From Candidatus Geothermarchaeota archaeon (GTDB lineage: Archaea > Thermoproteota > Nitrososphaeria > Geothermarchaeales > JDFR-13), in NCBI GenBank assembly GCA_015523545.1, contig WAKB01000001.1, positions 66,159 through 130,158 of the forward strand: a stretch of 64,000 nt of DNA. The letters run 5' to 3'. The notes beneath the pieces were generated by a model, which saw only the letters and a program-made list of their open reading frames with translations, ran no database searches and had not been told where the DNA came from. This document shows, in pieces, positions 2,865 to 44,309 of this stretch (position 1 is its first letter; the number at the start of each line of letters is the position of its first letter). The position numbers and the translations under genes were made by a program.

Positions 2865-4469
2865 ATGAAGGTATACGAGGCCGTCGCCGATGCATTGGTC
2901 AGCCTCGGATATAGGAGGGCCTATACCATACCAGGGACACACATATACCATTTGAACCACGCCCTGGGAGACAAGGTTCAGCAGACGGTTTTCAGGCATG
3001 AGATGGGTGCAACCTTCGCGGCAGATGCCTATGGAAGATTAACTGGCACTCCAGGCCTAGCCATAGTGACGGCTGGCCCCGGCATACTAAACGGGTTATC
3101 AGGGCTTGGACAGGCATATGCAGAGGCATCACCACTCCTCTACATAACCGGCGAGGTAGCCAGGGGTGAGAGGTACGGATTCCACGGGGTGGACGACCCA
3201 TTAGCAGTCACCTACTCCTCCATACCAGTGGCTAAGCGCGTATACCTTGTCGAGGATCCAGGCAGCATATGGAGCGTGATGGGTGAGGCCCACTACACAG
3301 CGCTTTCCGGCAGGAGGGGGCCTGTCCATGTATCCATCCCCTACGACGTACTGCAGAGCGAGGCTGGTGAGGGGAGGCTGGAGCAGAGGGAGACGGATGG
3401 TGTAGCTAGATGTGTAGATGTTATCAATGAGGGGCTAGGAGACGGTGTGAGGGGCGTCTTGATAATAGGTATGGAGCTATACCCCGAGCTCGCCGTGCAG
3501 TTGTTAGACCTCTTCGTGGACTGGCCATACATAGCCACAGTGGGGCAGATAGGGATGGGAGGGCTCAGGAGAGATAGATATGCGGGCCACATAGAGAAGA
3601 AGTTCCAGGTACACCCAGTAGCAGAACGAGTCCTGAGGGAGGCGGAATATATACTAGCCATAGGCATCCCGCCAGACTCACCAGAGGCGGAGCAGATATC
3701 ATTACTGAATGGAGACGCCAGGATAGACTATCTAAGGCCGGGCGAGTCCGGCTGCATGGTGGAGAAGATAGGTGGGGGCTACCACGTACTGGCACCCCTG
3801 AGAGAGGCTGTAGACCTGCTCAGCCCTGGCAGGAACGGTTTAGACCTAGACATAAGGGGGTTGATGGAGAAGCGTCTCGAGTGGGCGAGGGAGACGGTCT
3901 ACTCGGAGAAGGACAGCATGATACACCAGGGAGTGGCCGCCCACATGATATCCCAGCTAGAGATAGACGGCTACACAGTCACCTGTGACACCGGGGGTAA
4001 CGAGCAGTGGATAAGGGAGTTCATACCACCCATCCGCGACGTCAGATATCTATACTCGGGGAGCTTCGGATCAATAGGGTATAGCCTACCAGCATCTATA
4101 GGTGCCTACGACGACTGGCCAGAGGTACTTGCCGTCACCGGGGACGGGAGCCTGATGATGAGCCTAGGCGAGTTGAAGACTGTGGTGGAGCATAGCTATA
4201 ATGTGAAGATAGCCGTCTTCAACGACTCTACCTATGGGATACTAGAGATGCTCAGTAGGAGCGATATAGGGGAGGAGATCGAGGGAGGTATAGGGAGCGT
4301 CGACTTCGCCAAGGTTGCGGAGGCGCTGGGTATGGAGGCCATGGCTGTAGACACATATGAAGATCTTGAGGAGGGGCTTGAAGAGCTCATGTATAGTACT
4401 GGGCCATTCCTCCTAGACATCAGGTGTAGCCCAGAGGAGATCCCTACACTCCTGAGGAAGAATAGTTAA
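2865..4469 (+). CDS. thiamine-pyrophosphate-dependent enzyme (acetolactate synthase large subunit / benzoylformate decarboxylase family)
   Basis: 534 aa with the TPP-binding motif GDGSLMMSLGELKTVVEHSYNVKIAVFND and an N-terminal Pyr domain (GPGILNGLSGLGQAY). No small-subunit gene is adjacent, so the exact activity is unclear. Confidence 0.78.
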   Translation: MKVYEAVADALVSLGYRRAYTIPGTHIYHLNHALGDKVQQTVFRHEMGATFAADAYGRLTGTPGLAIVTAGPGILNGLSGLGQAYAEASPLLYITGEVARGERYGFHGVDDPLAVTYSSIPVAKRVYLVEDPGSIWSVMGEAHYTALSGRRGPVHVSIPYDVLQSEAGEGRLEQRETDGVARCVDVINEGLGDGVRGVLIIGMELYPELAVQLLDLFVDWPYIATVGQIGMGGLRRDRYAGHIEKKFQVHPVAERVLREAEYILAIGIPPDSPEAEQISLLNGDARIDYLRPGESGCMVEKIGGGYHVLAPLREAVDLLSPGRNGLDLDIRGLMEKRLEWARETVYSEKDSMIHQGVAAHMISQLEIDGYTVTCDTGGNEQWIREFIPPIRDVRYLYSGSFGSIGYSLPASIGAYDDWPEVLAVTGDGSLMMSLGELKTVVEHSYNVKIAVFNDSTYGILEMLSRSDIGEEIEGGIGSVDFAKVAEALGMEAMAVDTYEDLEEGLEELMYSTGPFLLDIRCSPEEIPTLLRKNS

Positions 4470-4489
4470 AAAGGGGGAAGGGGTTTAGA

Positions 4490-7400
4490 CTAGTCCTCAA
4501 GCCTAGTCCCACAGCTCATACAGAACTTGGCTGTAGGCCTATTCACATGGCCACAGCTGGGGCAGACCTTGCCAGCCCTCTCCATGCGTCTAGTCATACT
4601 TCTCCTCGGGATCTGTGGCCTGGGAAGGCCTCCCATTCCACGTCTATAGATGAGGAACCCGGCTATGGCGATTCCTAGTACCACTACTACGGTGACGCCT
4701 AGAGAGGCGGGTGTAAACATGACGCCCATCTCTAGACTGGTAGAGCCCCTAGCCAGCGTAGCGGTGCTAGTAGTAACGAAACCGGTCTCCAGGACTAGAT
4801 CCCTATCCGGCAATAGGAGTGTAAATCGGCCTGAGCCGTCTGTCTGGGCTGTGGCCACCACCTCGCCTGTAGATGGGTCCACCGCCCTCACCTCAGTCGA
4901 GGCCAACGGTAGGCCTAGGAAGTCCCTTACAGTCCCAGTGACCCTCTTCACCTCTGTAGATATGGTCACCGTAGAGTCTGATCCTAGGCCTACCTCCTGG
5001 CTACCCACTAAATAGCCTAGGTAACTAATCTCGACTCTATAGCCTCCTGCAGGCAGATTATTGAAGACGACCTCTCCACCAGCCTCCCCAGATATTACGC
5101 TCCCGTTGGGGTGATAAACCTTATAGCTGAAGCGCTCGAGGGCTTCTCCATCCATCGTCTCTGGCCTGATGACTAGGTCGTATATAGCCAGCTGGATAGT
5201 CTTCTCCCCAGGCGAAGACTCTGCTGAGTATGTGGTTGGGAGTAGGACCCCCTGATACATGATGTTCGTTATCGATATCGTACCCTTGGGTAGGAGTAGC
5301 TGTGGATTATCTACTGGGACCTCCCTACCCTGTATCGATAGGGTGAAGGAGACCTTCCCGAAGGCTATCTCCTCCCCATCGGCATCGACGAATCTGAGGC
5401 TGACGCTGTATACAGCCGCCTTGATCGAGAAGGACTGATCCCCACCCGTGAACTGGATCGTCCTCTCACTTGAGAGGACGTCGAAGCCCCTCCAACTTAG
5501 GCTCTCAAGGGTATAGGTACCCGTGACGGCGTACTCCAGGACGAGGCTACCCGTAACCGTATACCTCTTACCACCCGGACCGATCAAGACTGCCTCCACA
5601 TCATCTAGGACTATTGATCCAGAGGAGTCGGATACGCTTATGCCCAGCCTACCTACTGGGAGCTCAACCTGGACATCCCTATTCCCATCGAGCTGTACAT
5701 CGATGCCTAGGCCATACTCCACGCCGTCGATATAGACAGCCTCTACACGCCAGAGCCCCTTCACCGCCTGATCAACAGTCAGTCCACCGGTAAAGGTTAT
5801 GGTAGACCCGTTGGGGTGTCTAAGCACGAGCCTGAAGTCGAGGCCTGAGCCGGATAGATCCCTTCCAAGGGTGTCCCTAGCGTCGAGCCTGAGCCTATAT
5901 ACAGCGAGGCCCACCTCCATGGAGACGTCCCCATCCACCTGTATCGACACAGGGGCTGGCAAGACGTTCACACCCTCCATGTAGACACCGACTAGCCTAT
6001 GAGTACCCTTCGGCATCTGATAGGCTGATCCCCTAGCCTCTAGACTAATCACCCTACCCGCCACGTCCAGCTCTAGCCTAAGGGCCCTCTGTATAACCCC
6101 TCCATTAGCGTCTCTGAAGGAGAGGCTTAGATGGTATACCTCGAGATTAACGACCACCTCTCCGGGGCCCTCAACGTTGAACGTGTTGTCACTAGGCGTC
6201 ACGTCTACACCTAGGTATACCACCCTCTCAACAGTGATCCTTCCTGGGACTAGGGCTACACCATCGGGTGAGTAGTTCAGGCTACCCAGCCTCTCATGCC
6301 TGATACTGACCTCCTCCGGAGGCGTAGCCAGTGGCTCACCATCCCTATCCCTGAATACTAGGGTTATCCGGAAGACACTCGTCTCAATGGTCCTCGTGCC
6401 GCTACTAGTCTCCCTGATGCTGGTGTTCGCCACCTCTACACCAGACCACATAACCCTGATCCTATAGTCTCCCCATGGTGCACGGTCAACCGTTATCCTA
6501 CCAGCCTCATCAGTCCTGAACATCCTCACTGTGCCGTTTGGATAGGTCACCTCCACATCTACATTGGGCAGTGGCTGTCCCGTCTGGTCAACAACCGTGT
6601 AGCTCAGGCTCAATAGGTAATCCTCAACATTGAAGGTTGCATTACCCATATTCTTATATGCGTTGATTGCATTAGCCAACGCGTTCTCATAGTTCCCTGC
6701 ACCAGACCTGATTATGTTGATGGCGTTGGTGAGGCTCTGGTTATACTGGCCAATCTGGCTCCACACATCGTCGGGTATAATGGTGAAGCCATACCGCTTG
6801 AAAGGCTCAAGAGCCGTGTCAAGCTTACCATAGGCCTTGTCGATATAGTATAGTGCGTAGAGCATGCTGGCCTGCTCGATTTGGAAGACATCGTTCCTAC
6901 CCCAGCTGTGGAGATACGTCATGTAGCCCCAAGTCATACTCCATAGCCAGAAGACGTCAAGAGCCCTACTCGGGTTACGTGTAGCCATCAACTCCCGCCA
7001 ACTAATCCCGTTGTGGGGATGGTTAAGTGAGAGGATGTGCCCCGCCTCGTGGACCAGTAGAGGGGTTAGGCCTAGCCATGGAGGGACCTTGCTAAGTATC
7101 GTTATGTTCACATAAGTGTCGAACCATTCATTGTTCTGGACAAGGACGACATAGGTATCCCCTATGCCACGGGGCTGGACACGGGCATTCACCACCCCGT
7201 TGAAGGTCTGCCGATATATGGGTGTGGGGCTACCACCGTCCAGGAACTCCCTATACCCGGCTCCGTCTAGAACAATAATATCCACCTCTCCGAATGTGAA
7301 GCCCTGTATAATGACCTCGCCACCCGTGACCCTAGGGAATACGGGCACCTGCTGAGCCGCTATCTGGAATGCTGGTAGATAACCTATCACCGGCTCAGTA

Positions 7401-8731
7401 GCGATATGCCCACCTACAAGTGCAGGTGTCTGTAGAACCGCTATGATATGGGAAGGGATGGTATTCTCATCTGTAAGAGCTATGCCACCCGCATATGCAA
7501 TCCTAACATCTAGGAAGATGAACATGGGGATCTCATAGACTGGATCGGGATCCCTGAACCTATCAATATTTTCCATGATCCAGTTATGTACAACATCGAG
7601 CGGGGCTCCCTGGCCGAAGTACATGTTATACAATATCTCATCCCTCAGGTCGGGGAAGTCGTCCAGGGTATATAGCCCCCTATCAACATAGGATATGTTC
7701 AGAGCGTCTCCGAAGAGGTTCCTAATCTCTGATATAAATACCTCGGGTGTGAAGAAGTTCCTTGGGTCTAGCTGCGTACTGTTGACTATGTAGTATGCCT
7801 CGAAGGATAAGCTCAGGGCGGGTATCGGTGGATATACAGCTGTATGTACAAATTTGAAGATGACGGCCGAGTCTATAACCCTGGCCAGTTGCTGGTTAAG
7901 AAGCTGTTTATCACCAGGGAGGCGTAGAAACCTCATCGGCCTGATCTCTACCGAGACGTTGTTGAAGGAGGTTGGACCGGCGCTCATGTCGAAGAAGATT
8001 AGTCTTGTCGAACCTCCCCCAGCCACCGACTGCATGGAGTCCTTCCTTAGATAGACGTTCCACCCCTGATCAGGGTCTGGGAGCGTTATGTTGTAGAAGT
8101 ATAGGTATGAGATGTCGGGATAGGTGTTTATGATGACAAGGGTATACTTTCCCTCGGTCTCGGGGAACTCCTGCCTAACCCTGTTGACCAGCCACTCCTC
8201 GAACTCCATGGCGTTGATATAGGCGGCGTCCCTCTCACCAGTCTCGAGCTGAGCCCTGAATGGGGCCTCTCCCCAGACCCTGTTGTTATTAATGTAGCTG
8301 ACGATATCGCTCTTCAGCTGGTTGGATGCGTATAGGAACCGGTAGTTCAGGGTGAAGTTAATATAGATATAAGCTTCACCCTTCTCAAGGATTCTCTGTA
8401 GATCGGCCCTGGCATACCACTTATGGACATTCGAAAGTATATAGTCCTCATCGACAAGGTCTTGACCAAGGCCTACAAAGACAACATAGATGTCCAGTGG
8501 CACCCCGTTAAACAAGTCCCGTAGAGTACCCGAGACCCACTCCAGCTTCCTGAGGCTTGTAGCCATCTCATCGCCCTGGGCAACCAGGTCTAGGAAGCTA
8601 TTGGCAGCATACTCAGAACCTGTGCCCCCCACATATCCAGACGAGTCTATAGATGGCGGTATCGGAACGAGAAGAAGAATGAGGAGGGTAAAAAGTAGTG
8701 GGAGTGGGGATCTCCTAGGCCCGACACCCAA
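4490..8731 (-). CDS. giant membrane-anchored surface protein: signal peptide, about 700-aa N-terminal domain with a zincin motif, 8 tandem beta-sandwich repeats, one TM helix, cytoplasmic C-terminal zinc ribbon
   Basis: 1413-aa ORF. It has a hydrophobic N-terminus (PLPLLFTLLILLLVPIPP) and the motif VHEAGHILSLNHPHNG (HExxHxxxxxH). The repeats are about 75-90 aa and resemble CarboxypepD_reg/PEGA domains. The TM helix is LGVTVVVVLGIAIAGFLIY and the tail is CPSCGHVNRPTAKFCMSCGTRLED. Confidence 0.85.
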   Translation of the reverse strand: MGVGPRRSPLPLLFTLLILLLVPIPPSIDSSGYVGGTGSEYAANSFLDLVAQGDEMATSLRKLEWVSGTLRDLFNGVPLDIYVVFVGLGQDLVDEDYILSNVHKWYARADLQRILEKGEAYIYINFTLNYRFLYASNQLKSDIVSYINNNRVWGEAPFRAQLETGERDAAYINAMEFEEWLVNRVRQEFPETEGKYTLVIINTYPDISYLYFYNITLPDPDQGWNVYLRKDSMQSVAGGGSTRLIFFDMSAGPTSFNNVSVEIRPMRFLRLPGDKQLLNQQLARVIDSAVIFKFVHTAVYPPIPALSLSFEAYYIVNSTQLDPRNFFTPEVFISEIRNLFGDALNISYVDRGLYTLDDFPDLRDEILYNMYFGQGAPLDVVHNWIMENIDRFRDPDPVYEIPMFIFLDVRIAYAGGIALTDENTIPSHIIAVLQTPALVGGHIATEPVIGYLPAFQIAAQQVPVFPRVTGGEVIIQGFTFGEVDIIVLDGAGYREFLDGGSPTPIYRQTFNGVVNARVQPRGIGDTYVVLVQNNEWFDTYVNITILSKVPPWLGLTPLLVHEAGHILSLNHPHNGISWRELMATRNPSRALDVFWLWSMTWGYMTYLHSWGRNDVFQIEQASMLYALYYIDKAYGKLDTALEPFKRYGFTIIPDDVWSQIGQYNQSLTNAINIIRSGAGNYENALANAINAYKNMGNATFNVEDYLLSLSYTVVDQTGQPLPNVDVEVTYPNGTVRMFRTDEAGRITVDRAPWGDYRIRVMWSGVEVANTSIRETSSGTRTIETSVFRITLVFRDRDGEPLATPPEEVSIRHERLGSLNYSPDGVALVPGRITVERVVYLGVDVTPSDNTFNVEGPGEVVVNLEVYHLSLSFRDANGGVIQRALRLELDVAGRVISLEARGSAYQMPKGTHRLVGVYMEGVNVLPAPVSIQVDGDVSMEVGLAVYRLRLDARDTLGRDLSGSGLDFRLVLRHPNGSTITFTGGLTVDQAVKGLWRVEAVYIDGVEYGLGIDVQLDGNRDVQVELPVGRLGISVSDSSGSIVLDDVEAVLIGPGGKRYTVTGSLVLEYAVTGTYTLESLSWRGFDVLSSERTIQFTGGDQSFSIKAAVYSVSLRFVDADGEEIAFGKVSFTLSIQGREVPVDNPQLLLPKGTISITNIMYQGVLLPTTYSAESSPGEKTIQLAIYDLVIRPETMDGEALERFSYKVYHPNGSVISGEAGGEVVFNNLPAGGYRVEISYLGYLVGSQEVGLGSDSTVTISTEVKRVTGTVRDFLGLPLASTEVRAVDPSTGEVVATAQTDGSGRFTLLLPDRDLVLETGFVTTSTATLARGSTSLEMGVMFTPASLGVTVVVVLGIAIAGFLIYRRGMGGLPRPQIPRRSMTRRMERAGKVCPSCGHVNRPTAKFCMSCGTRLED
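4493..4564 (-). other. C-terminal zinc-ribbon module of the giant protein
   Basis: CPSCGHVNRPTAKFCMSCGTRLED lies directly after a TM helix and an Arg/Pro-rich linker. Confidence 0.8.
4714..6619 (-). repeat. 8 tandem, diverged protein-level repeats (about 75-90 aa each) in the giant ORF
   Basis: Successive units begin YTVVDQTGQPL, RITLVFRDRDGEPL, HLSLSFRDANGGVI, RLRLDARDTLGRDL, RLGISVSDSSGSIV, SVSLRFVDADGEEI, DLVIRPETMDGEAL and RVTGTVRDFLGLPL. Each ends in a hydrophobic x-V/I-Y-type strand. Boundaries are approximate. Confidence 0.65.
7019..7051 (-). other. codons for the HEAGHILSLNH zincin/metzincin-like metal-binding motif within the giant ORF
   Basis: The reverse complement of 7019-7051 reads cac gag gcg ggg cac atc ctc tca ctt aac cat, which fits the pattern HExxHxxxxxH. 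Confidence 0.6.
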
Positions 8732-8737
8732 CCCGGG

Positions 8738-10435
8738 TCACCCCTCAAGCTTGGTGCCACACTTTACACAGAACTTGGCGCCAGGCTTGTTCGGATGACC
8801 ACAGCTTGGGCAGTACAACGCACCCTCCACAGGCTCAGGCGGAGCCTTCCTGGGAATCCTTGCTCCCAGCCCTCCCCTCCTAAGGAATATGTAGGATCCT
8901 ACTCCTATTAGAGCCAGTAGTGGCAGGGCGATCATCCATAGGGGTAGGCCTGGTGAAGCCACCTTTATCGTGACGGTGCTTGAGGCTGGGTTGAAGTCCT
9001 CATCACCTACAAAGTTAGCTGTGACCACTAGGTCTCCACCACTTGATGGGGTATATGTCAGGCTGAAGGTATTGTCCTCACCAACCCTCACTGTACGTGT
9101 CTCGGTATTGCCCCCTAGCTGAATGGTTATATCCACCAAGACATCCTTGAAGGAGACGTCTACGCCTAGTGGGTTGGGCCCGTCATAGCTGAGCGACCCT
9201 GTTATAGTGACGGTCTCACCAGCATTCACCTCCGTTGCATTGGCCTGTAGAGATAATGTAACGTCCTTCTTAGCACCCTCGGCCAGCTTCGACTGGGCCT
9301 TCTGGATCATGTATGACGCATACCAGTTGAAGGGGTAGAGGCTCCTTACATCCTCGAAGACCTTCTTGGCCCTAGAGTAGAGCCCTGCATAGAAGTATCC
9401 TACACCCTCCTCCCACATCTGGTCAACCGGGCCACGGGTATTGTAGCTCACACCCTGCTCCGCCAGATACTGTTTAAGTAGATCTCCCGGTATGAAGAAG
9501 TTGAAACCTGCCACAGGCTCCAGGTTCTCATCAACAGACCCCATATTGGTTACTCCTATGACCTCACCCATCTCGTTAACCACTGGCCCACCACTATTGC
9601 CTTTACTGATATCGACATTCATCTGTATTGCCCTCACATCTGTAATCGTCCTCCTCTCACCGCTGATGATACCATTTGTGTAGGAGGGGAATAGCAAAGT
9701 ATCCTCGCTCAGCATAGTATGGAAGTTAACAACACCTGGATAGCCAAACGCATATATCGTCTGTCCAGGTTGATACTCATCCACCTCACTAATCTTAAGT
9801 GAAGGTGTGTTCGCCACATCAATCTTGAGAACGGCGAGGTCCCTGCCAACTAGGAAGGGATCGGGAGTACCTACAACTCTTGCTATTATACCGTCCTCCC
9901 TGATCTTTCCGCCACTAGACTCGCCAACCAGGACATAGACTATCCTTATAGCGTTTCTTACCTCCCCGTAGGTCAGGACATGGTTTATAATGAACTCTAT
10001 GTCCTCCTGGGTAATGTTATAGCCACTCTGTATAAGGTTGTTAATGATGTCGATCGCGGCACTCCTAACAAGCTCTGTTTTCACAAAGATATCCTCGAGA
10101 TAGTCTGAATGGGTCATGGCGAAGACTACATGCCCATTAGTCACTATGTAGCCATCGTTATTCACGAAGAATCCACTCCCAATACCCCCAATCATCGAGT
10201 TAACTGTGAAGAAGTCGGCTGTCGGTCGTCCATACCTATCGACATAGGGAACCTTTATCTCGGCCTCTATGATCGTAACTATGAAGACGACTCCGGGTAA
10301 AACTAGGTCATAGATAGCCTCTGGACTGATAGCCTCCTGGGCTGCAACAGGCTCCACGACAGGCGTATATGGATTCGCAATCGGGCCAAGGAGTATTCCC
10401 AGCAGAATCAATACGATTATCCCATGCCTAACCAT
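8738..10435 (-). CDS. membrane-anchored trypsin-fold serine protease (S1C/HtrA-like) with an Ig-like domain, TM helix and C-terminal zinc ribbon
   Basis: 565 aa with an N-terminal hydrophobic signal/anchor (IIVLILLGILLGPIA). The triad context is GSGFFVNNDGYIVTNGHVV, DLAVLKI and GNSGGPVVN. The TM helix is WMIALPLLALIGVGSYIFL and the tail is CPSCGHPNKPGAKFCVKCGTKLEG. Confidence 0.88.
   Translation of the reverse strand: MVRHGIIVLILLGILLGPIANPYTPVVEPVAAQEAISPEAIYDLVLPGVVFIVTIIEAEIKVPYVDRYGRPTADFFTVNSMIGGIGSGFFVNNDGYIVTNGHVVFAMTHSDYLEDIFVKTELVRSAAIDIINNLIQSGYNITQEDIEFIINHVLTYGEVRNAIRIVYVLVGESSGGKIREDGIIARVVGTPDPFLVGRDLAVLKIDVANTPSLKISEVDEYQPGQTIYAFGYPGVVNFHTMLSEDTLLFPSYTNGIISGERRTITDVRAIQMNVDISKGNSGGPVVNEMGEVIGVTNMGSVDENLEPVAGFNFFIPGDLLKQYLAEQGVSYNTRGPVDQMWEEGVGYFYAGLYSRAKKVFEDVRSLYPFNWYASYMIQKAQSKLAEGAKKDVTLSLQANATEVNAGETVTITGSLSYDGPNPLGVDVSFKDVLVDITIQLGGNTETRTVRVGEDNTFSLTYTPSSGGDLVVTANFVGDEDFNPASSTVTIKVASPGLPLWMIALPLLALIGVGSYIFLRRGGLGARIPRKAPPEPVEGALYCPSCGHPNKPGAKFCVKCGTKLEG
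8741..8812 (-). other. C-terminal zinc-ribbon module of the serine protease
   Basis: Sequence is CPSCGHPNKPGAKFCVKCGTKLEG. By hand count, 57 of 81 aligned nt are identical to the corresponding segment of the giant ORF. Confidence 0.8.
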
Positions 10436-10439
10436 CTAA

Positions 10440-10892
10440 TCACCTCTTGAAAATCTTCTTGACACCACCTAGGAGACCCTCATCCTCAGCGAGCTTAGCT
10501 CCACAGTTCTCACAGAACCTATTACCGACAGCATTGGGGTGTCCACACTCGGGGCAGTACACAACATTACCTGTGTGGCTATGCCTAGCTGTAGTCGCAC
10601 TGGTAGGCTCAGACTGCTGAACCTGCTGGGTAGGTGGCTGGCTCGATACACCTCCAGACCCGCTCAGCCCACTGGTCTTCAAGAGTACAACGTCACCAAC
10701 GGCCTGGATATTGCTGAAGAAGACATAGTTCTGCTCCTCACCCTCGCCTATGACCATCACTAGATTGCCCTTAAGGTCGAAGCCGATATCACTGACCTTG
10801 CCCAGGATCTTCCCGTTGGCGTCGACGACCGTCTTACCGACTACATCCTCCCTTCTGAAGAAGGAAGTCATGTTATCACGAAATAGAATCAA
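10440..10892 (-). CDS. PRC-barrel domain protein with C-terminal zinc ribbon
   Basis: The N-terminus EDVVGKTVVDANGKILGKVSDIGFDLKGNLVMV is typical of PRC barrels. A Ser/Gln/Thr-rich linker follows, then CPECGHPNAVGNRFCENCGAKL. The codon at 10892 is TTG. The ATG at 10871 (MTSFF...) lies about 30 nt downstream of a TATA-like box and is the more likely start. Confidence 0.85.
   Translation of the reverse strand: MILFRDNMTSFFRREDVVGKTVVDANGKILGKVSDIGFDLKGNLVMVIGEGEEQNYVFFSNIQAVGDVVLLKTSGLSGSGGVSSQPPTQQVQQSEPTSATTARHSHTGNVVYCPECGHPNAVGNRFCENCGAKLAEDEGLLGGVKKIFKR
10491..10556 (-). other. zinc-ribbon module of the PRC-barrel protein
   Basis: Sequence is CPECGHPNAVGNRFCENCGAKL. By hand count, 41 of 66 aligned nt are identical to the protease tail. 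Confidence 0.8.
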
Positions 10893-10900
10893 TCCTCAAA

Positions 10901-10909
10901 TTTATATAA
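10901..10909 (-). promoter_or_regulatory. TATA-like box for the PRC-barrel/protease/giant-protein operon
   Basis: The plus strand reads tttatataa. It sits about 30 nt upstream of the ATG at 10871, which fits a leaderless or short-leader archaeal promoter. Confidence 0.45.
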
Positions 10910-10980: not shown

Positions 10981-11361
10981 TTATACCTCTACACCATGAT
11001 CCTTCAACATTTTCGAGAGTTTTGAAACTGTGTTAATGATATAGTCCACCGCCCTATCCATATCTATTATCCTGACTAGCATCCTGTGCCGCCATAGTAT
11101 CCTCTGGTTGTTATGATCTATGAAGCGGGTGAAGACCCTCTTCAGCTCGTCGGGAACCTGTATATCATTCTTCTTTAGGAAGAAGTCTACGTAGCACCAT
11201 GTATAGGCATCCTCCTTATAGTCACTGGCATGGGCTAGGTCGAAGGATATGTAGAAGGGTATCCCGTCGGAGACAGTTATCCTGTCCTCGCTACCCTCAA
11301 TGGGGAACTCAACCTCTTTGAGGCCGTAGCCCTTCAAGTCGTTCCTGACAAGGAATTCCAC
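10981..11361 (-). CDS. hypothetical protein
   Basis: 126-aa ORF with coding-like composition. No motif recognised. Confidence 0.55.
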   Translation of the reverse strand: MEFLVRNDLKGYGLKEVEFPIEGSEDRITVSDGIPFYISFDLAHASDYKEDAYTWCYVDFFLKKNDIQVPDELKRVFTRFIDHNNQRILWRHRMLVRIIDMDRAVDYIINTVSKLSKMLKDHGVEV

Positions 11362-16122: not shown

Positions 16123-17069
16123 GGCTCCACTACACCCACATGCTCCATGAGCAGGGATCTATACCTCTCGGGATCCTCTACATAGCCCATATACACGTTT
16201 TTACCGCCTCCACCCCTACCTCCACACTCCCCACTTATCCTGGCCTTAAGCCCCTCTATATCCACCCCCCTGCTGGCTAGGAAGACCATATGCTTCTCGC
16301 CATCCCAGCTGAGTACCGAGAGGACATCTACTCCACGCTCATTCATAACGTTTCTAGCCCGGCTAGTGACCCTCTTCATGTCTAGGTAGGGAAGCTCTAC
16401 AGCTAGTAGGCTATACCTCCCTCTAAGCAGAGGCCACCTCGACAGGGCTGTGTCGACAACCTCCCTAGAAGCCTTCTCCACCCTAATCTCAAGCTCCTTA
16501 AGACTCTCTACACGGTTATAGAGATCCTCGAGGGAGGAGCCTAGTAGGCGCGTCATACTATATATGTTGGATGCGCTCTCTAGGGCGTAGTCGACTGCCC
16601 TCTCCCCAGTATAGAACTCAAGCTCATAGAGCCCGGAGCGAACCCTCCTGATCAGCCTGGGAACAACTAGCCGCACCTCTGACGCCCTCTCCACATGGGG
16701 GTTTATACATGCCGAGGCGTCGTAGTCACCTATCCTGACGACCCTGATGAACTCCTTATCGCCCAGCCTCTCCTCATATGCCCTGAGGCCGGGATACTTG
16801 GCCCTAGCCTCATCAAGGCTGCTGAAGACCTCCACGTGGAACGGTAGGTCATCAGCAATGGCCCTGTTAGCCATCCTCGCAGCCTCTATAACGGTCTCCC
16901 ATCCAATATCGCCGTCATACCTGAGGAAAGCCTTATCCACACCACTATCCTCATGGACGACCCTCACCACCTTTAGCCCGGGCACCAGCTTGTATAGACT
17001 ACCCACGAGGAGATGCTCCCCCGAATGTCTAACCCTTATATCCCCATTATCCACCTCGACACACCCCAT
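16119..17069 (-). CDS. alaX: AlaX-type alanyl-tRNA trans-editing protein with a C-terminal DHHA1-like domain
   Basis: Zinc motifs HSGEH (HxxxH) and CINPH (CxxxH) are present. The C-terminal glycine cluster GGRGGGGKNVYMG resembles the AlaRS C-domain. Its stop region overlaps the downstream gene start by 4 nt. Confidence 0.75.
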   Translation of the reverse strand: MGCVEVDNGDIRVRHSGEHLLVGSLYKLVPGLKVVRVVHEDSGVDKAFLRYDGDIGWETVIEAARMANRAIADDLPFHVEVFSSLDEARAKYPGLRAYEERLGDKEFIRVVRIGDYDASACINPHVERASEVRLVVPRLIRRVRSGLYELEFYTGERAVDYALESASNIYSMTRLLGSSLEDLYNRVESLKELEIRVEKASREVVDTALSRWPLLRGRYSLLAVELPYLDMKRVTSRARNVMNERGVDVLSVLSWDGEKHMVFLASRGVDIEGLKARISGECGGRGGGGKNVYMGYVEDPERYRSLLMEHVGVVEP

Positions 17070-19822
17070 TGGGACAAGCCATTATAAACACCCCAAGCCT
17101 GAATAATTATTTTAACACGCACCGAGGGGTGGTTACTATTGAATACAACATCAGGATCGGCCTCGAGATACACATCCCACTCTCAACAGTAGATACCAAG
17201 CTATTCTGCCAATGTCCAAACCCGTTTAAACATCCTCCTGAGATGCCCAACCAATATGTATGCCCCACATGCCTGGGCCTACCTGGAGCCCTCCCCAGCC
17301 CAAATAGAGAGGCTATTAGGAAGGCGATAATCCTAGCGAAGGCCCTGAAGATGGAGATACCCAGTAAGATACAGTTCTACAGGAAGCATTATCTATATCC
17401 AGACCTACCCAAGGGATACCAGATAACCCAGTACATGGCTGGTGGGGATCTCCCAATAGGTATTAGGGGAGGGATGCTCTTCAGGGATAGGTATATGGGG
17501 ATAAGGAGGATACAGCTGGAGGAGGATCCCGCCAGGCTGGAGCATCCAGGTGGGCTGGGCGAGTCTAGTAGGACGCTCATCGACTACAACAGGTCTGGAG
17601 CCCCACTTATAGAGCTGGTTACCGAGCCAGAGATATACAGCCCTAGGGAGGCGAGGATATTCATAGAGGAGCTGACCAGACTCCTTGTCACGATAGGAGT
17701 TATATCCGAGGATACCCAGCCAAAGGTAGACGCAAACATATCTATCGAGGGTGGGCCGAGGGTAGAGATCAAGAACATATCCTCCCCCAGGGATGTTGAG
17801 AAGGCCCTTAGCTACGAGGCCATGAGGATGGCTAGATACATGGAGGAGGGTATAGAGATAAGGCGGGAGACGCGGCACTGGGACGATAGGAGGAGGGTGA
17901 CAATACCCCTTAGGGAGAAGGAGTATGAGGAGGAGTATAGATATATACCCGACCCCAACCTACCACCGATAGACATATCCGACATGATAGCCGAGGTCGA
18001 GGAGCCGGAGACCCCCCTGAAAATCCTGGAGAGGATCATCAGGGATGGGGTCGATGTGTACCCGGCCAAGATCATAGCATCGGACAGGAGACTCCTAAGA
18101 ATCTACCGGGAGGCCTCGGAGGGACTTGGGAGAAGGGCTAGGACGGAGCTGGCCAAGACACTTGTAAACGAGGCTAAACACATGCTAAACACCGGGAAGA
18201 CCGTGGAGGAGCTAATAGAAACCATGAAGCCCCTATACCAGCTGGTGGATAAGGGTATCATCACACCGGCCGAGGCTAGGGAGAAGCTCCTAGGAAGAAG
18301 GGGGTTGAAACTGGCCGATCAGGAGGAGATACTAAAGACGGTTGATAAGGTTCTTAGAGAGGTTGATACTAGTAGGAGGAGGAGTATAGACTACGTGGTC
18401 GGTACCGTTCTTAGAAGGCTTAGGGAGAGGGGTCTCGATGCGGACCCGAGGAGTATAGCCGAGTATGCCCGTGGAAAGATCGAGACAGCCAGGAAGATAG
18501 AGGTGAGGAGGGCTAGGGATGGAGAGGATAGGATGTATAAGGGTGTCGCGGAGGCCCCTAGACCAGTGGATCCTAGCGAGTTACCCAGCCTAGTCGGATC
18601 TGAAGTGGTTATAGGTGGCTGGCTAGAGACGAGGGCATATGTTGGGGACAAGCTCTTCCTACGGCTCAGGCATTGGAGAGGCACTGTACAGGTAGTGGCT
18701 CATGGAGATAGCCCGGCCTACAGAGAATTGTCGAGGCTCCCCAGAGAGGCATATATAGTCGTGAGGGGCAGGGTAGTCAGGGACTCAAGGGCCCCCGGCG
18801 GGCTAGAGATCCACGCATCAGAGGTAATCCCCGTAGGTACATCCACCGACCCACCATTGACACTGATGGACCTGGCTAGGTCAAGCCTCCCAACCAGGGT
18901 CAGGCATAGATACCTCGACATAAGGCGGCGTAGGGTGAGGGCTGTCCTATACATAAGGGCAAGGCTACTAGAGATCGTGAGGAGCCTCCTAACCAGGAAG
19001 GGCTTCGTAGAGATACAGACACCCACGATAATAGCCTCGGCCACAGAAGGAGGGGCGGAGCTATTCCCACTGATATACTATGGTAGGGAGGCCTTCCTAG
19101 CCCAGAGCCCCCAGCTATATAAACAGATGGCTATAAACGCCTTCGAGAAGGTCTTCGAGATCGATAGCTACTACCGGGCCCAGAAATTCGACACCCCACG
19201 CCACCTAGCAGAGTTCTGGTCCCTAGACGTCGAGGCCGCCCACCACGGGCTGGGAGACCTGATCAGCCTAGCTAGGGAGATACTTCTCGAGATACATAGG
19301 ACGCTCCCCTCAAAGGCGGGTGACGAGCTCATGCTCCTAGGGGTCGAGCTTGAGCCAGAGCCTAGCTTCGCGGAGATGAGTTATGACGAGGCTGTGGAGA
19401 TATCGGGGACGAGGTATGGCGAGGACATCTCTGCAGAGGCGTTAAGAGAGGTGTATAAGGAGGCGAACGCTAGATACCTGTTCATAACCCACTGGCCAGA
19501 GGAGACCAGGGCCTTCTACTACCGATCGATAGACGGGATAACCAGGAGCTTCGACCTAGTAGGACCCTTCACAGGGACGCCTATAGAACTTGCCAGTGGT
19601 GGGGAGAGGATAAACAGCTATGACGAGCTCGTCAGGAGCATTAGGCGTAGGGGGCTTAGGGAGGAATCGTATGGATGGTACCTAGAGATGTTTAGGTATG
19701 GAATGCCCCCACACGGAGGCTTCGGGTTGGGGATAGACAGGCTACTAGCATCCATCCTAGGCCTCGACTCCGTCTTGGAGGCAACCCTAATACCCAGGAC
19801 ACCCAAGTACTACGTCCCATAG
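17069..19822 (+). CDS. gatB-aspS: fusion protein: Asp/Glu-tRNA amidotransferase subunit B (GatB) joined to an archaeal-type aspartyl-tRNA synthetase (class IIb)
   Basis: Residues ~25-488 carry GatB hallmarks: IGLEIHIPL, TKLFCQC, CPTCLGLPGALP, YLYPDLPKGYQITQ, RIQLEEDPARL, NRSGAPLIELVTEP, EIKNISS, and a helical YqeY-like tail. Residues 489-917 form a full AspRS: the OB fold GSEVVIGGWLETRAYVGDKLFLRLRHWRGTVQVV, then FVEIQTPTIIASATEGGAELF, AQSPQLYKQ, YRAQKFDTPRHLAEFWSLDVE and GMPPHGGFGLGIDRL. The frame is uninterrupted. A likelier start is the GTG at 17129. Confidence 0.85.
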   Translation: MGQAIINTPSLNNYFNTHRGVVTIEYNIRIGLEIHIPLSTVDTKLFCQCPNPFKHPPEMPNQYVCPTCLGLPGALPSPNREAIRKAIILAKALKMEIPSKIQFYRKHYLYPDLPKGYQITQYMAGGDLPIGIRGGMLFRDRYMGIRRIQLEEDPARLEHPGGLGESSRTLIDYNRSGAPLIELVTEPEIYSPREARIFIEELTRLLVTIGVISEDTQPKVDANISIEGGPRVEIKNISSPRDVEKALSYEAMRMARYMEEGIEIRRETRHWDDRRRVTIPLREKEYEEEYRYIPDPNLPPIDISDMIAEVEEPETPLKILERIIRDGVDVYPAKIIASDRRLLRIYREASEGLGRRARTELAKTLVNEAKHMLNTGKTVEELIETMKPLYQLVDKGIITPAEAREKLLGRRGLKLADQEEILKTVDKVLREVDTSRRRSIDYVVGTVLRRLRERGLDADPRSIAEYARGKIETARKIEVRRARDGEDRMYKGVAEAPRPVDPSELPSLVGSEVVIGGWLETRAYVGDKLFLRLRHWRGTVQVVAHGDSPAYRELSRLPREAYIVVRGRVVRDSRAPGGLEIHASEVIPVGTSTDPPLTLMDLARSSLPTRVRHRYLDIRRRRVRAVLYIRARLLEIVRSLLTRKGFVEIQTPTIIASATEGGAELFPLIYYGREAFLAQSPQLYKQMAINAFEKVFEIDSYYRAQKFDTPRHLAEFWSLDVEAAHHGLGDLISLAREILLEIHRTLPSKAGDELMLLGVELEPEPSFAEMSYDEAVEISGTRYGEDISAEALREVYKEANARYLFITHWPEETRAFYYRSIDGITRSFDLVGPFTGTPIELASGGERINSYDELVRSIRRRGLREESYGWYLEMFRYGMPPHGGFGLGIDRLLASILGLDSVLEATLIPRTPKYYVP
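17102..17114 (+). promoter_or_regulatory. TATA-like box upstream of the gatB-aspS ORF
   Basis: aataattatttta lies about 20-27 nt upstream of the in-frame GTG at 17129, which immediately precedes the conserved GatB N-terminus (IGLEIH). This suggests 17129 is the real start rather than the ATG at 17069. Confidence 0.4.
18533..19822 (+). other. aspS: AspRS module of the fusion ORF, beginning at the in-frame Met489 (possible ancestral or alternative start)
   Basis: The ATG at 18533 is in frame: (18533-17069)/3 = 488. The 429 aa from here (MYKGVAEAP...) match the length and N-terminal style of stand-alone archaeal AspRS. Confidence 0.7.
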
Positions 19823-43853: not shown

Positions 43854-44309
43854 CTATACAGGGATTATAGCGACATAGTGGTACCCCTCAGGCTCTCTCT
43901 GCCTAACCTCGAGCCTCACCTCCATATCAGGCTTCAGTGAGTCGAAGTCCGTCTCCACTAGGCCTAGGACCTTGAAGCCTCCTACCTCGGCTACGCCCAC
44001 TATGTAGTCTGGGTAGTGGCTATGTGTCTTGGGCTTAACATTTATCTCTGTGTATGTCAGGAGCCTACCCACCCCCTCTATCCTCCTCTCCTCCAGGTCT
44101 CTTGAGCTACAGCTCCTACATATGGGGCCGGGTGGGTACTGCCTATATCCACAGGCCCTACATACCTGTCCAAGTATCACGCCCTCCTCCAGCATCCTAT
44201 AATACTTCTCCAGGCCGCCTAGGGAGCTCCTCAGGCTCAGTGGGAAGACCCTCTGATCCTCGAGGACCGGCATACCAGTCTTCTCATCCCTAGAGATCCT
44301 ATCCATCAC
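43854..44309 (-). CDS. DUF35 OB-fold/zinc-ribbon protein (thiolase-associated scaffold)
   Basis: Rubredoxin-like CRACGYRQYPPGPICRSCSS followed by an OB fold. It lies directly downstream of a thiolase gene. Confidence 0.85.
   Translation of the reverse strand: MMDRISRDEKTGMPVLEDQRVFPLSLRSSLGGLEKYYRMLEEGVILGQVCRACGYRQYPPGPICRSCSSRDLEERRIEGVGRLLTYTEINVKPKTHSHYPDYIVGVAEVGGFKVLGLVETDFDSLKPDMEVRLEVRQREPEGYHYVAIIPV

What the first reader, a model, noticed from the sequence alone, without database searches (positions are those of the whole stretch)
4490..10892. Tight operon whose three products all end in the same zinc ribbon: PRC-barrel protein, HtrA-like ectoprotease, and giant metzincin-like repeat protein
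Seen in the sequence: three consecutive minus-strand ORFs are separated by only 4 nt (10440/10435) and 6 nt (8738/8731), with one TATA-like box upstream of the first.

All three proteins terminate in the same module:
- CPECGHPNAVGNRFCENCGAKL in the 150-aa PRC-barrel protein.
- CPSCGHPNKPGAKFCVKCGTKL in the 565-aa serine protease.
- CPSCGHVNRPTAKFCMSCGTRL in the 1413-aa protein.

In the two large proteins the ribbon follows a single hydrophobic helix and an Arg/Pro-rich linker, and both begin with a signal-like segment. The catalytic parts are therefore predicted to be extracellular and the ribbons cytoplasmic. Those catalytic parts are the trypsin-fold triad contexts GHVV / DLAVLKI / GNSGGP and the zincin motif HEAGHILSLNH. 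The third protein is soluble.

Established knowledge: short CPxCG...FCxxCG ribbons are widespread terminal modules without a defined function. PRC barrels are the adaptor fold used by crenarchaeal CdvA and by haloarchaeal CdpB division proteins.

Inference: the shared ribbon may be a cytoplasmic docking or assembly handle through which the PRC-barrel protein positions or controls two surface proteases, for envelope or S-layer remodelling, or for localised proteolysis. I know of no described system with this composition.
Basis: partly seen in the sequence, partly recalled or inferred. Interest (0 to 1): 0.8.

Follow-up and report, generated by a model that had tools for sequence, protein, structure and literature searches.

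The report
Archaeal surface-protease operon sharing zinc-ribbon tails
Three tightly packed genes of an uncultured archaeon encode a small cytoplasmic adaptor-like protein and two membrane-anchored surface proteases that all carry the same kind of tiny zinc-binding tail, and comparison with other genomes suggests, without proving, that these proteins work together across the membrane.

Summary
Three minus-strand genes, 4 and 6 nt apart, encode three proteins:
- a PRC barrel with a zinc ribbon (143 aa);
- a PDZ-less S1C serine protease (565 aa);
- a 1413-aa metzincin.

All three pass the Pfam Zn_Ribbon_1 cut-off. Both proteases have a signal-like N-terminus, one C-terminal membrane helix, a basic linker and then the ribbon.

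The full triad occurs only in one narrow, wholly syntenic clade. NCBI labels it Nitrososphaeria, not Thermoprotei. Two wider patterns support a functional link:
- A PRC-plus-ribbon gene sits directly upstream of an S1C ectoprotease in a second, divergent clade.
- Ribbon-tailed S1C proteases lie beside unrelated ribbon proteins in five different operon layouts. The background rate is 1 in 240 ORFs.

In the second clade the protease has no ribbon. So the claim that the ribbon is the PRC docking handle is not supported as stated.

The giant protein's head belongs to a rare family (64 representatives) with an intact metzincin zinc site. Its predicted structure best matches PIGS, the pseudo-metzincin subunit of eukaryotic GPI transamidase.

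My best reading is a cytoplasmic adaptor plus two ectoproteases assembled by their tails. That assembly is inferred, not shown.

The parts
10901..10909 (-). TATA-like box TTATATAAA upstream of the first gene
   Evidence: Read directly. It lies 30 nt upstream of the ATG at 10871 and only 9 nt from the TTG at 10892. That spacing favours the ATG start and a short-leader transcript.
10440..10871 (-). Gene 1: soluble PRC-barrel plus zinc-ribbon protein, 143 aa. The mechanical ORF extends to the TTG at 10892.
   Evidence: No hydrophobic helix. Only four 90%-identity clusters found, all in the same syntenic clade. Same-architecture relatives sit upstream of S1C proteases in L029, L031 and L036.
10677..10862 (-). 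PRC-barrel domain (aa 11-72 of the 150-aa ORF)
   Evidence: Pfam PF05239, E 1.4e-8, 35 bits against a cut-off of 21.2. The closest solved structure is the stand-alone archaeal PRC barrel MTH1895, 1pm3.
10491..10559 (-). Zinc ribbon 1: CPECGHPNAVGNRFCENCGAKL
   Evidence: Pfam Zn_Ribbon_1, 32.7 bits against a cut-off of 25. 78-91% identical among orthologs.
10443..10490 (-). Conserved basic tail after the ribbon: AEDEGLLGGVKKIFKR. Possibly an amphipathic membrane- or partner-binding peptide.
   Evidence: Conserved in all four lineages. Hydrophobic moment is 0.69, but 7% of shuffles reach it, so this is inconclusive.
8738..10435 (-). Gene 2: type-I membrane-anchored, PDZ-less S1C serine protease, 565 aa
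   Evidence: Catalytic His102, Asp199 and Ser281 are invariant or nearly invariant in the family alignment A2.
10337..10435 (-). Signal-peptide-like N-terminus of the protease (aa 1-33)
   Evidence: Hydropathy peak at aa 1-19, followed by AAQ. Present in all relatives.
9551..10180 (-). Trypsin-fold catalytic domain (aa 86-295), with a roughly 97-residue His-to-Asp spacing (helical insert)
   Evidence: Pfam Trypsin_2, E 1.6e-22. The best solved relatives are HtrA1/DegP catalytic domains, E 4e-14, matching aa 198-399 only.
8957..9247 (-). Ig-like Big_3_5 domain (aa 397-493)
   Evidence: Pfam PF16640, E 7.5e-7, below the curated cut-off. Conserved in the family.
8885..8941 (-). Transmembrane helix of the protease (aa 499-517), followed by RRGGLGARIPRK
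   Evidence: Kyte-Doolittle score 2.08. The basic cluster on the C-terminal side fits the positive-inside rule.
8747..8815 (-). Zinc ribbon 2: CPSCGHPNKPGAKFCVKCGTKL
   Evidence: Pfam Zn_Ribbon_1, 33.9 bits. About half of the protease family lacks this module.
4490..8731 (-). Gene 3: 1413-aa type-I membrane-anchored metzincin with a long repeat stalk
6896..8560 (-). Ectodomain head (aa 58-612). It belongs to a rare family, and its predicted fold best matches PIGS.
   Evidence: 64 representatives among 1.84 billion proteins. AF2 model pLDDT 87.3, pTM 0.88. The top four Foldseek hits are PIGS chains, E 1.7e-7 to 8e-6.
7019..7051 (-). Zinc-binding motif HEAGHILSLNH (aa 561-571)
   Evidence: H561, E562, H565 and H571 are invariant in 45 family members, with family consensus HExGHxxGLxHPHD. 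The profile matches serralysin, E 1.8e-8. This protein has Ser where the metzincin Gly normally sits.
6914..6922 (-). Met-turn M604-T-Y606
   Evidence: M604 is nearly invariant and Y606 invariant. The segment aligns with the serralysin Met-turn 'MSY'.
6614..6889 (-). Three long helices (aa 615-706) linking head and stalk
   Evidence: AF2 secondary structure H615-647, H654-676 and H681-706.
4742..6613 (-). Seven to eight tandem CarboxypepD_reg (transthyretin-like) repeats, aa 707-1330
   Evidence: Pfam PF13620, E 1.2e-18. An iterated self-profile finds repeats from aa 722 to 1308.
4649..4705 (-). Transmembrane helix of the giant protein (aa 1343-1361), followed by YRRGMGGLPRPQIPRRSMTRRMER
   Evidence: Kyte-Doolittle score 2.61, with a strongly basic C-terminal flank.
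4499..4564 (-). Zinc ribbon 3: CPSCGHVNRPTAKFCMSCGTRL
   Evidence: Pfam Zn_Ribbon_1, 30.2 bits. 70-87% identical among orthologs, while the head domain is about 42% identical.
4468..4472 (-). T5 run after the last stop codon. Terminator-like; the next gene is convergent.
   Evidence: Read directly. The convergent TPP-enzyme gene ends at 4469.

Best explanation
The region is one operon of an uncultured Nitrososphaeria-lineage archaeon. It encodes a cell-surface proteolysis module with a cytoplasmic component.

**The three products**
- A PDZ-less S1C serine protease held close to the membrane. Predicted type-I topology.
- A metzincin whose PIGS-like head sits on a stalk of 7-8 transthyretin-like repeats. 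Predicted type-I topology.
- A small soluble protein with a PRC barrel, a flexible linker, a ribbon and a basic tail.

Each protease leaves a short basic, proline-rich tail ending in a four-cysteine zinc ribbon in the cytoplasm.

**Proposed mechanism**
- The soluble protein acts as a cytoplasmic adaptor. It binds the cytoplasmic tail of the serine protease.
- Through ribbon-to-ribbon contacts or a common partner, it brings the metzincin into the same assembly.
- Adaptors of this fold are known to oligomerise, so the two ectoproteases could be clustered or positioned at one place on the membrane.
- The output is local extracellular proteolysis. Most likely this is protein degradation for peptide uptake or processing of envelope proteins.

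**Shown:** gene layout, domain content, catalytic motifs, hydropathy and charge pattern, and cross-lineage gene linkage.

**Inferred:** co-transcription, topology, any protein-protein contact, clustering, and the substrates.
For: **Operon signals.** Gaps of 4 and 6 nt with Shine-Dalgarno-like motifs, one TATA box and a terminal T-run.

**Domains.**

**Metzincin site.** HExxHxxxxxH and M-x-Y are invariant in 45 family members and match serralysin at E 1.8e-8.

**Topology.** Signal-like N-termini, a single C-terminal helix and basic flanks.

**PRC-ribbon and S1C pairing recurs.**
- The pair occurs outside the syntenic clade in L029, L031 and L036, with gaps of 2-27 nt.
- PRC scores E about 1e-8 there.
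- BLASTP against the window protein gives E 7e-11 and is collinear.
- L036 has different upstream genes.

**Ribbon partners in five layouts.**
- This clade.
- L007: an upstream Big_3_5-TM-ribbon protein.
- L018/L030: a multi-pass protein with an N-terminal ribbon, plus a soluble protein with two ribbons.
- L021/L042/L043/L046/L049/L050/L051: a 440-882-aa ORF immediately downstream ending in two ribbons, with a signal-like N-terminus, ectodomain and membrane helix where I inspected it (L021, L042, L049).
- L019: a two-ribbon ORF at position -3.

**Controls and background.**
- About 50 ribbon-less relatives have no ribbon neighbours.
- The background rate is 1 in 240 ORFs.
- At the level of 50%-identity clusters, Fisher p = 0.05: 3 of 6 against 2 of 22.

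**Conservation.** Ribbons are 70-87% identical among orthologs, against about 42% for the metzincin head.

**Nutritional hint.** In L035 a second-clade protease is followed by an oligopeptide-binding protein and a permease.

**Adaptor precedent.** PRC barrels act as polymerising adaptors in CdpB1/B2 and CdvA (bioRxiv 10.1101/2023.03.28.534520 and 10.1101/2023.03.28.534543).
Against: - No interaction was tested.
- The full triad exists only where the whole neighbourhood is syntenic.
- Distant relatives of the metzincin never neighbour S1C or PRC genes.
- The second-clade protease lacks a ribbon. The ribbon is therefore not needed for the PRC-protease link.
- Four ribbon-tailed protease lineages show no ribbon neighbour in the DNA available: L061, L098, L055/L072, and the short contigs L027/L028.
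- Cluster-level statistics are weak (p = 0.05).
- Sharing of the tail could partly reflect local duplication of a TM-linker-ribbon cassette, as seen in L007.
- The metzincin has Ser in place of the canonical Gly, and Asn in place of the family's Asp after HPH.
- Signal-peptide and TM calls rest on hydropathy only.
Confidence: 0.5

Rival explanations
1. The operon simply co-expresses two independent surface proteases for feeding on external protein. The zinc ribbons are generic small cytoplasmic end-caps of single-pass proteins, serving topology or stability. They spread between neighbouring genes by local duplication of a TM-linker-ribbon cassette. The PRC-ribbon gene is co-transcribed but does not touch the proteases.
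For: - About half of the S1C family, and most of the metzincin family, work without a ribbon.
- The three ribbons are near the Pfam consensus.
- In L007 the neighbouring gene shares Big_3_5, the TM helix, the linker and the ribbon with the protease. That is a clear partial tandem duplication.
- The S1C and giant tails share RRGGLG next to the membrane.
- The triad is clade-specific.
Against: - Soluble ribbon proteins need no topology cap, yet they are in these operons: the PRC-ribbon protein here and in L029/L031/L036, and the 287-aa two-ribbon protein in L018.
- The ribbon partners in the five layouts are non-homologous, so duplication cannot explain most of them.
- Ribbons cluster by orthology, with no sign of gene conversion.
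- The PRC-S1C pairing is kept in a clade with different flanks.
Confidence: 0.3
2. The Cys4 ribbons are regulatory sensors or tags, not assembly handles. They could report cytoplasmic zinc or redox state across the membrane to the proteases. They could also mark the tails for turnover by a cytoplasmic unfoldase or protease, with the PRC-ribbon protein acting as regulator or competitor.
For: - The ribbons are more conserved than the catalytic domains.
- Bacterial relatives of the protease carry a different cytoplasmic signalling domain, FHA, on the other side of a membrane helix. Cytoplasmic control of this protease family is therefore a recurring theme.
- Cys4 zinc sites acting as redox switches are established elsewhere (own knowledge, for example Hsp33 and RsrA).
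Against: - No kinase, phosphatase, unfoldase or redox gene lies in or beside the operon.
- A single-pass helix with a flexible 20-30-residue linker is a poor conduit for conformational signalling.
- Nothing here tests metal or redox response.
Confidence: 0.1
3. The PRC-barrel protein is a division or envelope-remodelling factor of the CdvA/CdpB kind. It would recruit the two proteases to the division site for S-layer or envelope cutting.
For: - The PRC barrel is the fold of CdvA and CdpB1/B2.
- Thaumarchaeal relatives divide with the Cdv system (PMC11188069).
Against: - No cdv, ftsZ or sepF gene lies beside the operon in any of the loci.
- The protein lacks the coiled coil of CdvA.
- Its best solved match is a stand-alone barrel, MTH1895.
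- Published PRC neighbourhood surveys list translation, RNA-processing, Cdc48, EngB and cdv genes, but no protease.
- The peptide-transporter neighbour in L035 points to nutrition.
Confidence: 0.05

Closest known systems
HtrA/DegP/DegS family (MEROPS S1C) and other membrane-anchored S1C proteases such as mycobacterial MarP
   Same: - Trypsin-fold catalytic domain with a His-Asp-Ser triad and the GNSGGP motif.
- Best solved matches are HtrA1/DegP catalytic domains.
- Located outside the cytoplasmic membrane.
   Different: - No PDZ domain.
- All NCBIfam HtrA, DegP, DegS and MarP models score far below their cut-offs.
- About 97 residues lie between the catalytic His and Asp.
- A helical region plus one Ig-like domain follow the catalytic domain.
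- The anchor is a C-terminal helix with a cytoplasmic zinc ribbon.
- A PRC-ribbon gene sits upstream.
Serralysin/matrixin-type metzincins (MEROPS M10)
   Same: - An HExxHxxGxxH-type zinc site followed by a Met-turn with Tyr (M-x-Y).
- The family profile matches serralysins at E 1.8e-8 across the motif and Met-turn.
- 13 of 45 family members hit Pfam Peptidase_M10 weakly.
   Different: - The match covers only about 70-90 residues.
- The window protein itself hits no peptidase Pfam model.
- Ser replaces the conserved Gly.
- The catalytic part is embedded in a roughly 550-residue multi-lobed head with an inserted beta-sandwich.
- There is no RTX or haemopexin domain.
- It is membrane-anchored on a repeat stalk.
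PIGS/Gpi17, the pseudo-metzincin subunit of eukaryotic GPI transamidase
   Same: - The AF2 model of aa 1-707 (pLDDT 87) has four PIGS chains as its top PDB matches.
- Those matches give E 1.7e-7 to 8e-6, probability 1.00 and about 735 aligned columns.
- PIGS residues 222-398 fold like the metzincin AmzA (PMC9098846).
- Both are extracytoplasmic, membrane-anchored and partnered with another protease.
   Different: - PIGS lacks the zinc site and Met-turn, whereas this family keeps both.
- TM-scores are only 0.34-0.44, at 9-10% identity.
- No sequence-level link was found. There is no Pfam PIG-S hit at E up to 1, and no PDB hit with the N-terminal profile.
- PIGS has two TM helices and no repeat stalk or ribbon.
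Archaeal PRC-barrel proteins CdvA and CdpB1/B2
   Same: A PRC-barrel domain above the Pfam cut-off. These are small cytoplasmic proteins acting as interaction modules next to the membrane.
   Different: - No coiled coil.
- A C-terminal zinc ribbon and a basic tail instead.
- Not encoded near division genes.
- Encoded upstream of an ectoprotease in two clades.
- The PRC-plus-zinc-ribbon architecture has been reported only as 'a few taxa', with no function assigned.
Zn_Ribbon_1 / DZR terminal modules (Pfam PF13240, PF12773)
   Same: All three tails pass the PF13240 cut-off and lie close to its consensus.
   Different: No function is defined for the family. New here is the repeated occurrence of such ribbons on several products of the same protease operons, on both membrane and soluble proteins.

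Membership tests
Zn_Ribbon_1 (PF13240) | Match to the family model above the curated gathering score | tested here: met
   32.7, 33.9 and 30.2 bits against a cut-off of 25 for the three proteins.
Zn_Ribbon_1 (PF13240) | Zinc actually bound by the four cysteines | not testable with these tools
   Needs metal analysis of purified tails.
PRC-barrel (PF05239) | Match to the family model above the curated gathering score | tested here: met
   35 bits against a cut-off of 21.2, covering aa 11-72. The closest solved structure is the MTH1895 PRC barrel.
CdvA | PRC barrel followed by a coiled-coil region and a C-terminal ESCRT-III-binding peptide, encoded in the cdv cluster | tested here: not met
   After the barrel come a Ser/Gly/Gln/Pro-rich linker, a ribbon and a basic tail. 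No cdvB or cdvC gene lies in the neighbourhood.
HtrA/DegP (S1C with PDZ) | Trypsin-fold domain with a His-Asp-Ser triad | tested here: met
   Trypsin_2, E 1.6e-22. H102, D199 and S281 are conserved in the family alignment.
HtrA/DegP (S1C with PDZ) | At least one C-terminal PDZ domain | tested here: not met
   No PDZ hit at E up to 0.1. NCBIfam degP_htrA_DO scores 74.5 bits against a cut-off of 416.
Metzincin clan | Extended zinc motif HExxHxxGxxH/D | tested here: met
   The three His and the Glu are invariant in 45 members, with family consensus HExGHxxGLxHPHD. The window protein has Ser at the Gly position.
Metzincin clan | Conserved Met-turn below the zinc site | tested here: met
   M604 is nearly invariant and Y606 invariant. 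Both align with serralysin 'MSY'.
Metzincin clan | Metzincin catalytic fold | tested here: inconclusive
   The whole-model Foldseek search returns the pseudo-metzincin PIGS, not canonical metzincins. Searching the catalytic part alone was not possible.
Metzincin clan | Zinc-dependent peptidase activity | not testable with these tools
   Needs an enzyme assay.
PIGS/Gpi17 | Overall fold of the luminal domain | tested here: inconclusive
   Four PIGS chains are the top hits at E 1.7e-7 to 8e-6 and probability 1.00. However, TM-scores are 0.34-0.44 and global rmsd is 23-26 A.
PIGS/Gpi17 | Sequence membership (Pfam PIG-S) | tested here: not met
   No PIG-S hit at E up to 1 in six members. The N-terminal profile finds nothing in the PDB.

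The most novel reading that the evidence does not exclude
The 1413-aa protein would be an archaeal, still catalytically intact homologue of PIGS. As PIGS grips the PIGK protease in GPI transamidase, its shamrock-like head would hold the co-operonic S1C protease outside the cell. The zinc-ribbon tails and the PRC-ribbon adaptor would clamp the same pair on the cytoplasmic side. That would make the operon a two-protease transmembrane surface machine of a kind not described in archaea, and a candidate relative of the ancestor of a GPI-transamidase subunit. More generally, terminal zinc ribbons would be heterotypic assembly handles that mark the members of one membrane complex.
Probability: 0.1. 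Interest if true: 0.9.

Novelty: new variant of a known kind. Interest (0 to 1): 0.6.

Why it matters
Terminal CPxCG...CxxCG ribbons are among the commonest unexplained modules in archaeal and bacterial proteomes.

- **A testable role for the ribbons.** Several products of the same protease operons carry them, both membrane-anchored and soluble. If the ribbons assemble or regulate membrane complexes from the cytoplasmic side, that can be tested directly.
- **A new partner for PRC barrels.** The PRC-ribbon and S1C pairing gives PRC-barrel proteins a possible partner class outside cell division.
- **A possible origin for PIGS.** If the structural match is true homology, a rare archaeal metzincin family from Nitrososphaeria and Bathyarchaeia would be the first prokaryotic relative of this GPI-transamidase subunit. 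No such relative is reported in the literature I could search.
- **Ecological relevance.** Surface proteases of these uncultured archaea also matter for how they degrade environmental protein.

Tried and rejected
- **Word-indexed homolog search.** With the giant's N-terminal 707 aa it found nothing. The exhaustive search later found 64 representatives.
- **Single-sequence AF2.** The model of the head was useless, with pLDDT 35. The 45-sequence alignment was needed.
- **Alignment A1.** It was too divergent for the locus finder, so I replaced it with A3.
- **Gene conversion between the three ribbons.** Rejected. Ribbons group by orthology at both protein and DNA level.
- **Membrane-targeting helix in the PRC protein's tail.** Inconclusive. 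The hydrophobic moment is high, but 7% of shuffles reach it, and my MinD controls were not discriminated.
- **Sequence-level link to PIGS.** Not found.
- **Upstream 126-aa ORF (10981-11361).** It has no significant family match. It is absent from the second clade, and a promoter-like gap separates it from the operon. I therefore left it out.
- **Fourth C4 motif (44109-44162).** It is internal to an unrelated frame and not a terminal ribbon.
- **Literature searches.** Searches for DUF7906, prokaryotic PIGS relatives and cytoplasmic zinc-ribbon tails returned nothing relevant.
- **Whole-genome ribbon census.** Could not be done, because only the window and its flanks are held.

Full report
**1. 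The observation**

- The gaps are 4 nt and 6 nt. Each is preceded by a Shine-Dalgarno-like GAGGTGA or GAGGGGTGA.
- A TTATATAAA box lies at 10901-10909.
- A T5 run follows the last stop, and the next gene is convergent.
- The TATA box ends 9 nt before the TTG at 10892 and 30 nt before the ATG at 10871. Gene callers and the orthologs start at MTSFF. The first protein is therefore most likely 143 aa.

Pfam confirms the following:

- Gene 1: PRC (35 bits, cut-off 21.2) plus Zn_Ribbon_1.
- Gene 2: Trypsin_2 (E 1.6e-22), Big_3_5 and Zn_Ribbon_1.
- Gene 3: CarboxypepD_reg repeats and Zn_Ribbon_1, with no model for its first 700 residues.
- All three ribbons exceed the curated cut-off, at 32.7, 33.9 and 30.2 bits against 25.

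A six-frame scan of the whole 64 kb finds only four CxxC...CxxC motifs. Three are these.

Hydropathy gives a signal-like N-terminus in both large proteins. Each has one C-terminal helix (aa 499-517; 1343-1361) followed by strongly basic linkers. The PRC protein has no hydrophobic helix. This fits ectodomains outside and ribbons inside, but it remains a prediction.

**2. Where it comes from and how far the triad extends**

- The window is contig JALSXJ010000015.1 of GCA_027060065.1.
- A 94%-identical species representative is titled 'MAG: Nitrososphaeria archaeon'. The lineage is therefore not Thermoprotei.
- The full triad recurs in relatives whose protease is 79%, 62% and about 60% identical (L004, L006, L009/L026). 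It also appears in a frameshifted old assembly, L011.
- In all of these the entire neighbourhood is also kept: DUF885, UbiA, a TPP enzyme and Macro. This conservation alone therefore says little.
- The PRC-ribbon protein has only four 90%-identity clusters in the word-indexed search, all from this clade.

**3. The giant protein**

*Family and active site*

- An exhaustive HMMER search with aa 1-707 finds only 64 representatives among 1.84 billion proteins.
- Nearly all full-length members carry HExGHxxGLxHPHD.
- In a 45-member alignment H561, E562, H565, H571, P572 and Y606 are invariant, and M604 is nearly so.
- The profile matches serralysins at E 1.8e-8 across the zinc motif and the Met-turn 'MSY'.
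- 13 of 45 members hit Peptidase_M10 weakly. 14 of 45 hit DUF7906 in their N-terminal part.
- The metzincin call therefore stands. The window protein differs in having Ser for the canonical Gly and Asn for the family's Asp.

*Stalk*

- Seven to eight transthyretin-like repeats follow, spanning aa 722-1308.

*Predicted structure*

- With the 45-sequence alignment AF2 gives pLDDT 87.3 and pTM 0.88.
- Foldseek against the PDB returns four chains of PIGS as the top hits, at E 1.7e-7 to 8e-6, probability 1.00 and TM 0.34-0.44. PIGS is the GPI-transamidase subunit.
- The published structure paper states that PIGS 222-398 folds like the metzincin AmzA but lacks the zinc site and Met-turn. It also states that PIGS holds the PIGK protease in two grooves (PMC9098846).
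- No sequence-level link to PIGS was found. I rate true homology at about even odds.

*Relatives*

- Distant relatives of this metzincin in Bathyarchaeia and Nitrososphaerales (L013-L017) have no S1C or PRC neighbour. Only one has a ribbon tail.

**4. The serine protease**

- The closest solved relatives are HtrA1/DegP catalytic domains, at E 4e-14.
- There is no PDZ domain, and every NCBIfam HtrA, DegP, DegS or MarP model scores far below its cut-off.
- The archaeal subfamily shares a common layout. It has a signal-like N-terminus and a trypsin domain with a long His-to-Asp insert. A helical region, Big_3_5, a TM helix and a basic proline-rich tail follow.
- About half of the members end there, and half add a ribbon.
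- Many bacterial relatives instead carry a cytoplasmic FHA domain.

**5. Evidence for a functional link**

*PRC-ribbon and S1C pairing*

- In three metagenome contigs of a second clade (L029, L031, L036), a 148-156-aa protein is encoded 2-27 nt upstream of the protease. Protease identity to the window is 38-41%.
- That protein has a PRC barrel (E about 1e-8), a linker and a C-terminal C4 ribbon.
- BLASTP against the window protein gives E 7e-11 and is collinear.
- L036 has different upstream genes from L029 and L031.
- In this clade the protease has no ribbon, only RRRK followed by poly-proline.

*Ribbon partners of ribbon-tailed proteases*

| Loci | Ribbon-bearing neighbour(s) |
|---|---|
| L007 | 273-aa signal-Big_3_5-TM-ribbon protein upstream |
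| L018/L030 | 612-aa multi-pass protein with an N-terminal ribbon; 287-aa soluble protein with two ribbons |
| L021, L042, L043, L046, L049, L050, L051 | 440-882-aa ORF immediately downstream with two C-terminal ribbons; a signal-like N-terminus, ectodomain and membrane helix were seen where inspected (L021, L042, L049) |
| L019 | Two-ribbon ORF at position -3 |

*Controls and statistics*

- Ribbon-less relatives stand alone, with no ribbon neighbour. They are L022, L024 and about 50 metagenome loci.
- Only 1 of 240 ORFs more than three genes away carries the motif.
- At the level of 50%-identity clusters the contrast is 3 of 6 against 2 of 22, Fisher p = 0.05. One of those clusters lumps three different layouts.
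- Ribbons group by orthology, with no gene conversion. They are 70-87% identical among orthologs whose metzincin heads are about 42% identical.

**6. Interpretation**

The best-supported reading is a surface-proteolysis operon with a cytoplasmic adaptor.

- The PRC-ribbon protein is linked to the S1C protease in two clades.
- Ribbons recur on several products of such operons, on both soluble and membrane proteins.
- This fits assembly or regulation from the cytoplasmic side.

The specific proposal that the protease ribbon is the docking site for the PRC barrel is weakened by the ribbon-less protease of the second clade. The conserved basic, proline-rich tail is an equally good candidate.

A peptide-transporter gene follows a second-clade protease in L035, which hints at a nutritional role.

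I considered three rivals:

- Independent proteases with generic ribbons spread by cassette duplication, as in L007.
- A redox, zinc or turnover function for the ribbons.
- A division-related role for the PRC protein.

No division genes are nearby. Published PRC neighbourhood surveys mention no protease. The PRC-plus-zinc-ribbon architecture has been noted for 'a few taxa' without a function.

**7. Verdict**

- The components are known families. The combination, the recurring ribbon co-occurrence and the PIGS-like active metzincin are not described in the literature I could search.
- All physical claims remain inference.

Noticed in passing
window 6896-8560 (aa 58-612 of the 1413-aa protein): The AF2 model (pLDDT 87) of the metzincin head best matches PIGS/Gpi17 of human GPI transamidase, with four chains at E down to 1.7e-7. 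PIGS is described as a pseudo-metzincin, whereas this rare archaeal family keeps the zinc site and Met-turn. It may be a prokaryotic relative of a GPI-transamidase subunit.
   Followed up: partly
window 17069-19822 (+) and 19823-21250 (+): One 917-aa ORF fuses a GatB/GatE catalytic domain (E 8e-81) to an OB fold and a class-II Asp/Asn/Lys-type tRNA synthetase core (E 4e-71). A GatA-type amidase gene follows directly. This looks like a natural transamidosome fusion, and it is kept in relatives L004 and L009.
   Followed up: partly
window 8885-8941 flank, 4649-4705 flank, 10443-10490; L031 3384-3839: A short basic Gly/Leu motif recurs on the cytoplasmic side. It reads RRGGLGARIPRK in the protease tail and RRGMGGLPRPQ in the giant's tail. 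It reads GLLGGVKKIFKR at the end of the PRC protein and RRGGLGRILSFRKR in the linker of the second-clade PRC protein. Its meaning is unknown.
   Followed up: partly
window 9551-10180 (protease aa 102-199): About 97 residues separate the catalytic His from the Asp, where HtrA proteases have far fewer (own knowledge). This is a conserved helical insert of unknown role, present across the archaeal subfamily.
   Followed up: no
L018 180-5637: An unrelated tight operon has four genes: a ribbon-tailed S1C protease, a DUF3179 protein, a multi-pass membrane protein with an N-terminal ribbon, and a soluble helical protein with two C-terminal ribbons. It is a second example of a soluble ribbon protein encoded with ribbon-bearing membrane proteins.
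   Followed up: partly
L035 1-5012: A second-clade protease is followed by an SBP_bac_5 oligopeptide-binding protein, which also hits Gins51_C, and an ABC permease-like gene. This hints that these ectoproteases feed peptide uptake.
   Followed up: no
window 10981-11361 (-): A conserved 126-aa ORF with no family match lies just upstream of the operon in all close relatives. It is absent from the second clade, and its function is unknown.
   Followed up: partly
protein hits P0028, P0047, P0053-P0119: Many bacterial relatives of the protease (Acidobacteriota, cyanobacteria) fuse a cytoplasmic FHA domain to the S1C domain. The cytoplasmic module attached to this ectoprotease family therefore differs between lineages.
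   Followed up: no
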